A stretch of DNA of 63,469 nucleotides, counting the filler, from Collodictyon triciliatum (Eukaryota), in the NCBI GenBank assembly GCA_043381765.1. It is 21 parts of 21 records of this genome, joined end to end, with 100 filler letters (N's around TTAATTAATTAA, not from the genome) between each part and the next. Parts side by side here need not be neighbours in the genome. Positions count along the whole stretch, not along the records: positions 19,120 to 22,204 come from JBHJMP010007819.1; 20 more parts are not named here. One strand, 5' to 3'. Within the stretch, counting starts at the first letter, position 1. Every line of letters begins with the position of its first letter. This document shows, piece by piece, positions 19,350 through 19,500 of the stretch. The notes beneath the pieces are model-generated. The model was not told where the DNA came from. It was given only the letters and a program-made list of their open reading frames with translations, and ran no database searches. A program made the position numbers and the translations under genes.

Positions 19350-19500
19350 CGCATTTTTTCTAGAGGAGGTATACCAATATTTCGATTGATAAACCTGGTG
19401 CGCTAGTATCCAACGCCTCGCCACTCTTTTCACAAGGGTTGTGTAGTGGTGAAGGCTGCCAGGAAAGACCCAACAGCCTGTTTTTTAGAGGAAGGTGTAG
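19350..19500 (-). ncRNA. Putative Fanzor omegaRNA scaffold
   Basis: Four back-to-back stem-loops directly downstream of the Fanzor ORF (19453-19479, 19421-19449, 19400-19416, 19367-19396). Six G-U pairs form only on the Fanzor-sense strand. Confidence 0.65.

What the first reader, a model, noticed from the sequence alone, without database searches (positions are those of the whole stretch)
19350..19500. Four-hairpin cassette downstream of Fanzor: candidate omegaRNA scaffold
Seen on the minus strand, 5' to 3': AGGCUGUUGGG-UCUUU-CCUGGCAGCCU (11 bp, 3 G-U); CCACU-A-CACAA-CCC-UUGUG-AAAAG-AGUGG; GCGUUGG-AUA-CUAGCGC (2 G-U); AGGUUUAUCAAU-CGAAAU-AUUGGUAUACCU (1 G-U). The hairpins are 3-4 nt apart, GC-richer than the ORF, and flanked by an imperfect direct repeat (CCUCUA + A-run). 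All G-U pairs would be A-C mismatches on the other strand. Established: Fanzor/TnpB guide scaffolds are encoded at the element's right end, with the guide read from flanking DNA. Inference: this is the scaffold, and the guide would lie around 19350-19300. The structure looks better preserved than the ORF, so it might still guide an intact Fanzor in trans.
Basis: partly seen in the sequence, partly recalled or inferred. Interest (0 to 1): 0.85.

Follow-up and report, generated by a model that had tools for sequence, protein, structure and literature searches.

The report
Guide-RNA scaffold of a dead Fanzor transposon
The four hairpins are real and most likely encode the folded guide-RNA scaffold at the right end of a decayed copy of a Fanzor1 RNA-guided nuclease transposon, which is a further example of a published design and not a new kind of system.

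Summary
On the minus strand, 19367-19479 folds into the four hairpins described (-43.5 kcal/mol, z -4.2, 0 of 200 shuffles as stable). The plus strand does not (z -1.0).

Directly upstream on the same strand lies a frameshifted Fanzor1 gene (21377 to about 19430). A profile of its relatives matches the solved Fanzor1 proteins of Spizellomyces, Parasitella and Guillardia (E 5e-69 to 6e-55).

The element is multi-copy in one public run and occurs in freshwater metagenomes. Likeness between copies ends at ...CCUCCUCUAG (19360), right after hairpin 4, so a guide would start at 19359.

In the closest intact relatives the reading frame runs through hairpins 1-2 (tail KKQAVG...). The cassette is therefore half coding tail and half non-coding end, as in Guillardia Fanzor1, whose guide RNA also has four stem-loops.

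Comparative support is thin. One compensatory pair is visible in hairpin 4, and the changes in hairpin 1 are pairing-compatible. No DNA alignment of copies could be made, no transcript was shown, and the left end and target motif were not found.

A covariance model of the sister giant-virus Fanzor1 RNA does not match the cassette.

Verdict: a probable omegaRNA scaffold (about 0.65) and a new member of a known kind. Use in trans is untested.

The parts
19430..21377 (-). Decayed Fanzor1 gene: ATG at 21377 (MKKRKR...), ancestral stop UGA at 19432-19430 inside hairpin 2; at least 4 frame changes and at least 3 in-frame stops
   Evidence: tblastn of P0001 (648 aa) gives four collinear pieces in three frames covering residues 1-643, 41-62% identity. 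In-frame stops. Profile of relatives hits SpuFz1 8GKH E 5.4e-69, PpFz1 9CF0 1.3e-66, GtFz1 9CER 6e-55
20284..20292 (-). RuvC-I motif GVD (in KNIVGVDAGKFNLVYMVDE)
   Evidence: aligned to GVDPGK of P0001; D364 is invariant in alignment A1
19686..19715 (-). RuvC-II Glu and first zinc-finger cysteines (VDEFRTSKMC, then CSC)
   Evidence: weak Pfam Cas12f1-like_TNB match, E 0.017, below the cut-off
19551..19568 (-). RuvC-III motif TRDLNCA, reached only after a frameshift
   Evidence: last piece; R603/D604/N606 invariant in A1
19481..19550 (-). Variable linker: T13 run (19530-19518), then the upstream copy of the terminal motif CCTTCCTCTA (19495-19486) and A6
   Evidence: Some contigs of run X1 skip or replace 19487-19582 (tables 5 and 5c). 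Upstream likeness continues in metagenome contigs (table 7)
19453..19479 (-). Hairpin 1, 11 bp (3 G-U), loop UCUUU; lies in the ancestral coding tail (KKQAVG...)
   Evidence: fold -17.1 kcal/mol, z -4.05. Tails of P0001, P0031 and P0032 keep KKQAVG; the determined bases of the 3' arm stay complementary while the loop residues differ (my back-translation)
19421..19449 (-). Hairpin 2, two 5-bp helices; holds the ancestral stop codon
   Evidence: z -1.1 alone; frame
19400..19416 (-). Hairpin 3, 7 bp (2 G-U), loop AUA; non-coding
19367..19396 (-). Hairpin 4, 11 pairs plus a U-U mismatch, loop CGAAAU
   Evidence: z -3.65. A metagenome copy changes C19388-G19375 to U-A, changes 5 of 6 loop bases, and turns one G-U into a mismatch (table 7, read by hand)
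19360..19369 (-). Right-end terminal motif CCUCCUCUAG; likeness between copies stops after it
   Evidence: three other copies read ...CCCCTTCTAG, and one then continues with a flank unlike the window's (table 7). Depth is 0 in all four runs over 19245-19335 (table 2)
19339..19359 (-). Predicted guide segment (flanking DNA, AAAAAAUGCGUAAACCGUCG...); length is assumed from published 14-21 nt guides
   Evidence: inference from position; published lengths. No second match in the window at up to 3 mismatches

Best explanation
The cassette is the RNA-structured right end of a decayed Fanzor1 transposon copy, that is, the template of its omegaRNA (fRNA) scaffold. In an intact copy the element would be transcribed on the minus strand. 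The last 20 or so codons of the nuclease gene (hairpins 1-2), the non-coding hairpins 3-4 and the terminal CCUCCUCUAG would fold into the scaffold held by the Fanzor1 protein. The transcript would run on into the flank, so bases from 19359 downward become a 14-21 nt guide. The complex would then cut DNA that matches the guide next to a target-adjacent motif. Shown here: the identity and decay of the gene, the position and strand of the fold, its stability, and the point where likeness between copies ends. Inferred: transcription, processing, protein binding, guide use and the target motif.
For: (1) The ORF is Fanzor1. P0001 aligns over residues 1-643 with the D/E/D motifs kept, and the family profile hits the three solved Fanzor1 proteins at E 5.4e-69 to 6e-55. 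(2) Position and strand match the published design: RNA from the 3' end abutting the right end, with the guide from the flank (section 7 of PMC10432273, passages of PMC10530073). GtFz1 RNA is 150 nt with four stem-loops and overlaps 17 codons. (3) The fold is strand-specific: z -4.23 against -0.98. The cassette gives the best window of 276 in the contig, and its GC is 50% against 34%. (4) The element is a multi-copy family: 428 contigs of run X1 lie on 19336-21960 (58 at 99% or more, 108 at 95-99%, 133 at 90-95%, 129 under 90%). Contigs of three freshwater metagenome runs cover 19369-19504. Depth is 0 beyond 19335. Copies share ...TCTAG and one then differs from the window. (5) Hairpin 4 in one metagenome copy has a compensatory C-G to U-A change and a rewritten loop (table 7). 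(6) Relatives only 56% identical in protein keep KKQAVG, the 5' arm of hairpin 1, as an island of identity. Every base of the 3' arm that their residues fix still pairs (G-C to G-U, G-U to G-C, U-G to U-A), provided Ser is read as UCN, while the loop residues differ. (7) The sister giant-virus Fanzor1 family has a conserved RNA in the same place. It includes a 7-bp stem with covariation (pair 18-62: CG 30, AU 15, UA 15; pair 20-57: CG 50, GC 8) and a sharp end after an invariant GGTGTA. It was found in 11 of 11 held-out loci.
Against: No RNA evidence was obtained; the only strong holder run is RNA by guess alone. No DNA of further copies could be fetched, so there is no covariation statistic. 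The comparative signals are one hand-read contig end and back-translated protein tails. In that same contig end one G-U pair becomes an A-G mismatch. Copies diverge about equally in the cassette (86-91% identity) and in the ORF (80-93%), as neutral decay of young repeats would also give (table 8). Summed depth in run X1 falls from 203 over hairpins 1-2 to 17 over the bin that holds hairpins 3-4, so many copies there may carry a different 3' half (table 2). The model of the giant-virus Fanzor1 RNA does not match the cassette (best hit in the contig E 0.26, wrong strand and place), and Rfam has nothing there. Hairpin 1 has 11 bp, not the 7 bp reported for SL1 of three solved Fanzor1 RNAs. The left end, inverted repeats and target motif were not found. 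Other windows of the contig reach z about -3.3.
Confidence: 0.65

Rival explanations
1. A DNA-level or other cis-acting transposon end. The hairpins and the repeated CCTYCTCTAG motif are recognition or cleavage signals for the enzyme that moves the element, or a 3' UTR or termination structure, and are not the scaffold of a guide RNA.
For: The stretch lies at the very end of the element. The terminal motif has an internal direct copy at 19495-19486. The end holds the palindrome GGTATACC. Only one end is seen, and no inverted repeat partner was found.
Against: The strand asymmetry through seven G-U pairs favours RNA, although G-T pairs in single-stranded DNA are not excluded. Every Fanzor tested in the two papers read carried its guide RNA in exactly this position. 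There the guide RNA overlaps the terminal repeat, so the two roles do not exclude each other.
Confidence: 0.15
2. A relic without function of its own. Hairpins 1-2 are only the former coding tail, hairpins 3-4 are young untranslated sequence, and the fold is a by-product of local GC richness in a recently copied repeat.
For: Divergence is the same in the cassette and the ORF (table 8). H2 and H3 are unremarkable alone. Other windows reach z -3.3. X1 depth is low over H3-H4. There is no homology to the sister family's RNA.
Against: z is -4.2 with 0 of 200 shuffles. The KKQAVG island survives at 56% protein identity with variable loop residues. Hairpin 4 shows a compensatory change with a rewritten loop. 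The conserved stretch ends exactly after hairpin 4.
Confidence: 0.15
3. An unrelated small RNA gene or SINE/MITE-like insertion that landed behind the Fanzor gene, with the direct repeat as its target-site duplication.
For: A compact 115-nt structured unit is flanked by a roughly 10-nt imperfect direct repeat.
Against: Both repeat copies and the cassette are kept together with the ORF end in other copies and in the P0001 clade. There is no tRNA or Rfam match, no poly(A) or T-run after it on the minus strand, and no second copy in the window.
Confidence: 0.05

Closest known systems
Guillardia theta Fanzor1 (GtFz1) omegaRNA (PDB 9CER; Xu et al. 2024, PMC11423790; Saito et al. 2023, PMC10432273)
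   Same: A Fanzor1 protein, matched by the family profile at E 6e-55. The scaffold has four stem-loops and is about 150 nt (passages). The RNA overlaps the last 17 codons of the gene; here about 20 codons overlap.
   Different: SL1 is reported as 7 bp; hairpin 1 here has 11 bp. The window copy is a pseudogene, and its RNA has not been shown.
Spizellomyces punctatus SpuFz1 omegaRNA and 'ghost' Spu-1 loci (PDB 8GKH; PMC10432273)
   Same: This is the best structural relative of the protein family (E 5.4e-69). [quoted passage not shown] It is a multi-copy family with many partial copies and with protein-less loci that keep the RNA (section 7).
   Different: The SpuFz1 scaffold is 75 nt with two stem-loops and lies in a 30-nt terminal inverted repeat. 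Here it is about 120 nt with four hairpins, no inverted repeat partner was found, and it partly overlaps the ORF.
   Same: This is the sister protein family, 38-41% identical to P0001. Its conserved RNA starts in the last 75 or so nt of the ORF, runs about 95 nt past the stop, and ends sharply at the element's end.
   Different: There is no detectable likeness: the best R1 hit in the contig has E 0.26 on the wrong strand and place, and blastn/nhmmer found only T-run matches. Its architecture differs: a 7-bp covarying stem plus a 9-bp closing helix formed by the terminal AAAGGUGUA.
ISDra2 TnpB reRNA/omegaRNA (IS200/IS605)
   Same: The principle is the same: the scaffold overlaps the 3' end of the nuclease gene and the guide is read from DNA beyond the right end (stated in the passages; the rest is recalled).
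   Different: It is a prokaryotic, smaller protein. No sequence or structure comparison was run here.

Membership tests
Fanzor1 (eukaryotic/viral TnpB-like RNA-guided nuclease) - the ORF | Sequence homology over the full length to characterised Fanzor1 proteins | tested here: met
   The window ORF aligns to P0001 residues 1-643. The profile of P0001 and 10 relatives hits SpuFz1, PpFz1 and GtFz1 at E 5.4e-69, 1.3e-66 and 6e-55.
Fanzor1 - the ORF | RuvC D/E/D catalytic motifs and a zinc-finger (TNB) insertion | tested here: met
   GVDAGK, VDEFRTSKMCCSC and TRDLNCA are present, but in different frames. The Pfam TNB match is only E 0.017, below the cut-off.
Fanzor1 - the ORF | Intact reading frame (a working nuclease) | tested here: not met
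   At least 4 frame changes and at least 3 in-frame stops under the standard code, and frameshifts remain under table 6. This copy is a pseudogene.
Fanzor omegaRNA / fRNA (functional class) | Encoded on the nuclease strand at or after the 3' end of the ORF and ending at the element's right end | tested here: met
   The cassette at 19479-19360 follows the RuvC-III motif on the same strand. Likeness between copies stops after CTAG at 19360.
Fanzor omegaRNA / fRNA (functional class) | Stable, strand-specific secondary structure | tested here: met
   z -4.23 (0 of 200) on the minus strand against -0.98 on the plus strand. It is the top window of 276, though not a lone outlier.
Fanzor omegaRNA / fRNA (functional class) | Structure conserved with covariation among copies | tested here: inconclusive
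   The evidence is one compensatory pair and one broken pair in a hand-read contig end, plus pairing-compatible changes inferred from three protein tails. No DNA alignment could be made.
Fanzor omegaRNA / fRNA (functional class) | Transcribed, bound by the nuclease, with a 3' extension from the flank used as guide | not testable with these tools
   No run on record as RNA holds the stretch. Read laying gave contigs only.
Fanzor omegaRNA / fRNA (functional class) | Target-adjacent motif at the left-end junction that matches the insertion site | tested here: inconclusive
   The left end was not located. Family likeness still runs at 21960, where the laid stretch ends. The contig ends in a microsatellite at about 22110-22204, and no inverted copy of the right end was found.
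Solved Fanzor1 omegaRNAs (GtFz1, SpuFz1, PpFz1) | First stem-loop SL1 of seven base pairs | tested here: not met
   Hairpin 1 has 11 bp; only hairpin 3 has 7 bp. The feature is taken from passages of PMC11423790. The true 5' end of the RNA is unknown, so the numbering of the hairpins is uncertain.
   The best hit in the contig is 9.8 bits, E 0.26, plus strand, 21312-21446. The cassette region gives only a T-run hit at E 6. Control: 11 of 11 held-out loci matched at E 6e-22 or better.
Any Rfam 15 family; tRNA | Match to a curated model | tested here: not met
   No hit in 19350-19500 at E up to 10. At gathering score, only a tRNA elsewhere in the window. ARAGORN finds only tRNA-Ala at 30020-30091.

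The most novel reading that the evidence does not exclude
The window element and P0001/P0031/P0032 form a small, undescribed Fanzor1 subfamily. Its guide RNA has a four-hairpin scaffold of its own, unrelated in sequence to the giant-virus type, with half of it doubling as the protein's C-terminal tail. In the source organism the hundreds of decayed copies that keep this scaffold act as 'ghost' guide donors, each offering its own flank as a guide to the few intact nucleases in trans.
Probability: 0.15. Interest if true: 0.5.

Novelty: new member of a known kind. Interest (0 to 1): 0.3.

Why it matters
If confirmed, it adds a compact (about 120 nt) four-hairpin Fanzor1 scaffold from a little-sampled freshwater lineage. 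Fanzor guide RNAs are reported to vary widely, and few have been defined. It also gives a worked example of a scaffold whose 5' half is read as protein. Neither point changes how Fanzor systems are understood. The window copy itself is dead, so any practical value lies in intact relatives such as P0001.

Tried and rejected
1. Whole genome: none is held. Notes of this scan for this place, for the cassette sequence and for P0001: nothing.

2. RNA runs: no RNA holder is listed. The best holder, X1 (0.45 of the words), is 'RNA?' by guess, so nothing can be said about expression.

3. DNA relatives of the cassette. An exact 29-mer in viral contigs gave 0 hits. A 16-base pattern in viral contigs gave 28 hits, and none of them was like the cassette beyond the pattern and T-runs. 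A degenerate 32-position pattern gave 80 metagenome and 18 genome-contig hits, and 0 of these 98 were like the cassette or P0001 by blastn/tblastn.

4. Protein-guided locus searches. A4 in metagenome contigs matched 224 stretches, 0 confirmed. P0001 in viral contigs matched 36, 0 confirmed. P0001 in genome contigs matched 53, 0 confirmed.

5. A peptide search with a frame that is open across the cassette found no candidate.

6. A model built from the window cassette alone was not made, because DNA alignment needs two sequences.

7. Ciliate code: table 6 opens longer frames but leaves the frameshifts. Long standard-code ORFs elsewhere in the window argue against it. I used the table-6 reading only as a search query.

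8. Left end and inverted repeat: none was found in the contig.

9. Guide target: there is no second match in the window, but the window is a string of unrelated contigs, so this says little.

10. The idea that hairpin 2 corresponds to the 7-bp SL1 of the giant-virus family rests on a similar distance from RuvC-III and a shared UUCACC lead-in. It remains a by-eye resemblance that the model search did not support.

Full report
**The window.** The window is not one stretch of genome. It has 41 N runs, and 40 of them form 20 identical 100-base spacers (N44-TTAATTAATTAA-N44) about 3,180 bases apart. It is therefore a string of contigs of nearly equal length (about 3.1 kb), most of which end in microsatellites. 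The finding lies in the contig 19120-22204, and only that contig is its context. No whole genome is held.

**The observation.**
- The core 19365-19480 folds at -43.5 kcal/mol (z -4.23, 0 of 200 shuffles as stable).
- Its complement folds at -32.8 kcal/mol (z -0.98, 31 of 200).
- Hairpins 1 and 4 carry the signal; hairpins 2 and 3 alone are unremarkable.
- In my scan of the contig the cassette gives the best of 276 windows, but three other windows reach z about -3.3. Folding alone would not settle the matter.
- GC is 50% in the cassette against 34% in the ORF.
- Rfam and ARAGORN find nothing there.

**What lies upstream.** The minus strand from 21377 to about 19430 is a decayed Fanzor1 gene.
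- The metagenome protein P0001 (648 aa) aligns over residues 1-643 in four collinear pieces in three frames (41-62% identity). A fifth piece in another frame carries the RuvC-II and RuvC-III motifs.
- There are also in-frame stops.
- The motifs GVDAGK, VDEFRTSKMCCSC and TRDLNCA are kept.
- A profile of P0001 and ten relatives matches the solved Fanzor1 proteins: S. punctatus (E 5.4e-69), P. parasitica (1.3e-66) and G. theta (6e-55).
- The family is large: 3,147 cluster representatives at E 0.001 or better.
- The window's own clade is small: P0001/P0013, P0031, P0032, P0033, and probably P0057 and P0100.

**The cassette is half coding tail.** In P0001 the frame continues past RuvC-III as ...KIPHTKLFKKQAVGYSSTALTVTHKRMRM*. 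The window reads ...SSKKQAVGSFLAAFTTTQPL* in the matching frame.
- KKQAVG is the 5' arm of hairpin 1, and the stop codon lies in hairpin 2.
- So about 20 codons overlap the structure, and only hairpins 3-4 and the terminal CCUCCUCUAG are non-coding.
- P0031 (KKQAVGFHSAACMVTHRNM) and P0032 (KKQAVGYLP, where the contig ends) show the same island of identity.
- Back-translating, every base of the 3' arm of hairpin 1 that the residues fix still pairs, if Ser is read as UCN. The loop residues differ. This is indirect evidence.

**Other copies.** One read-laying run was allowed.
- Run X1 gave 428 contigs on 19336-21960, at identities from under 90% to over 99%. The element is therefore a multi-copy family.
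- Several of X1's commoner variants carry 1-2-base indels near the window's frame changes, so less damaged copies probably exist.
- Contigs of three freshwater metagenome runs cover 19369-19504 at 86-91% identity, about the same as their ORF pieces (80-93%).
- No run has depth in 19245-19335.
- Loose ends show that three other copies run on to ...CCCCTTCTAG. One then continues with a flank unlike the window's. The element therefore ends at 19360, and a guide would start at 19359.
- One contig end rewrites hairpin 4. The pair C19388-G19375 becomes U-A, five of six loop bases change, and one G-U pair becomes a mismatch.
- Against the reading, summed X1 depth falls from 203 over hairpins 1-2 to 17 over the bin with hairpins 3-4. 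Many copies there may carry a different 3' half.

**No alignment of copies could be made.** Both metagenome scans, four viral scans and two genome-contig scans gave nothing related.

**The sister family as a control.** At least 499 giant-virus contigs encode intact relatives, 38-41% identical to P0001.
- Their alignment shows nucleotide conservation from about 75 nt before the stop to about 95 nt after it. It ends abruptly after an invariant GGTGTA.
- RNAalifold finds a 7-bp stem with clear covariation and a closing helix made by the terminal AAAGGUGUA.
- A model of this RNA finds 11 of 11 held-out loci but does not match the window's cassette.
- So the clade does carry a 3' RNA in this position, but the window's version is not recognisably the same RNA.
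- This fits the published statement that Fanzor1 RNAs differ greatly beyond the first stem-loop.

**Comparison with print.**
- Saito et al. 2023 (section 7 read) describe the SpuFz1 RNA as a 75-nt scaffold at the right-end repeat plus a 14-15-nt guide. They also describe protein-less 'ghost' loci and a GtFz1 RNA that overlaps 17 codons.
- Xu et al. 2024 (passages) give GtFz1 a 150-nt RNA with four stem-loops and report a 7-bp SL1 in all three structures.
- Jiang et al. 2023 (passages) report structured RNAs abutting the right end for several Fanzors.
- The window's cassette fits this design in place, strand, size and number of hairpins. It does not show a 7-bp first stem.
- Earlier notes of this scan describe similar right-end hairpins in other genomes. 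I used them as leads only.

**Verdict.** The cassette is most likely (about 0.65) the omegaRNA scaffold region of a dead Fanzor1 copy. That makes it a new member of a known kind. The suggestion that it still guides an intact nuclease in trans is possible and has a precedent, but nothing here tests it.

Noticed in passing
whole window; spacers at e.g. 19020-19119 and 22205-22304: The window is a chain of contigs of about 3.1 kb joined by identical 100-base spacers (N44-TTAATTAATTAA-N44) about every 3,180 bases. Most contig ends are microsatellites. Neighbours across a spacer are not physically linked. One further N run of 473 bases lies at 43468-43940.
   Followed up: yes
L001-L080 (IMG/VR giant-virus contigs), e.g. 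L076:4768-4916: The giant-virus Fanzor1 family has a conserved RNA of about 150-170 nt spanning the stop codon. It has a 7-bp stem with covariation (CNNCUUC/GAAGNNG), an optional hairpin GUAGG...CCUAC that is missing in a subgroup, and a closing helix UACAUUUUU/AAAGGUGUA. Its end after an invariant GGTGTA is razor-sharp. Model R1 finds it in 11 of 11 held-out loci.
   Followed up: partly
proteins P0002, P0034-P0054, P0056 (no DNA held): A third Fanzor1 group has long, conserved C-terminal tails (...GLT.T...EK.GQSVDF...). They look like an ORF reading through a conserved RNA, as with ISSFTSS...EEKVRPS in the giant-virus group.
   Followed up: no
window 19481-19582: The linker between RuvC-III and hairpin 1 holds a T13 run (19530-19518). 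Some contigs of run X1 skip or replace it (joint 19486/19583, depth 82.7 in 2 contigs, tables 5 and 5c). A T13 run would stop RNA polymerase III (recalled), so the RNA would have to come from a longer polymerase II transcript or start after the run.
   Followed up: no
window 38375-41341 (-): A 988-aa uninterrupted standard-code ORF has seven Ephrin_rec_like cysteine-rich repeats (E 2e-65). It lies on another contig of the same assembly and hints at a microbial eukaryote that reads the standard code.
   Followed up: no
window 3619-4512 and 24334-25396: There are 126-nt tandem coding repeats on two different contigs. By recall their translation looks like WD40 repeats; this was not tested.
   Followed up: no
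window 10001-12000, 44001-48000, 56001-58000: These contigs have 50-58% GC among contigs of about 30-40% GC. They may come from a different organism in the same assembly.
   Followed up: no
window 30020-30091 (-): tRNA-Ala (UGC), the only Rfam/ARAGORN hit in the window.
   Followed up: no
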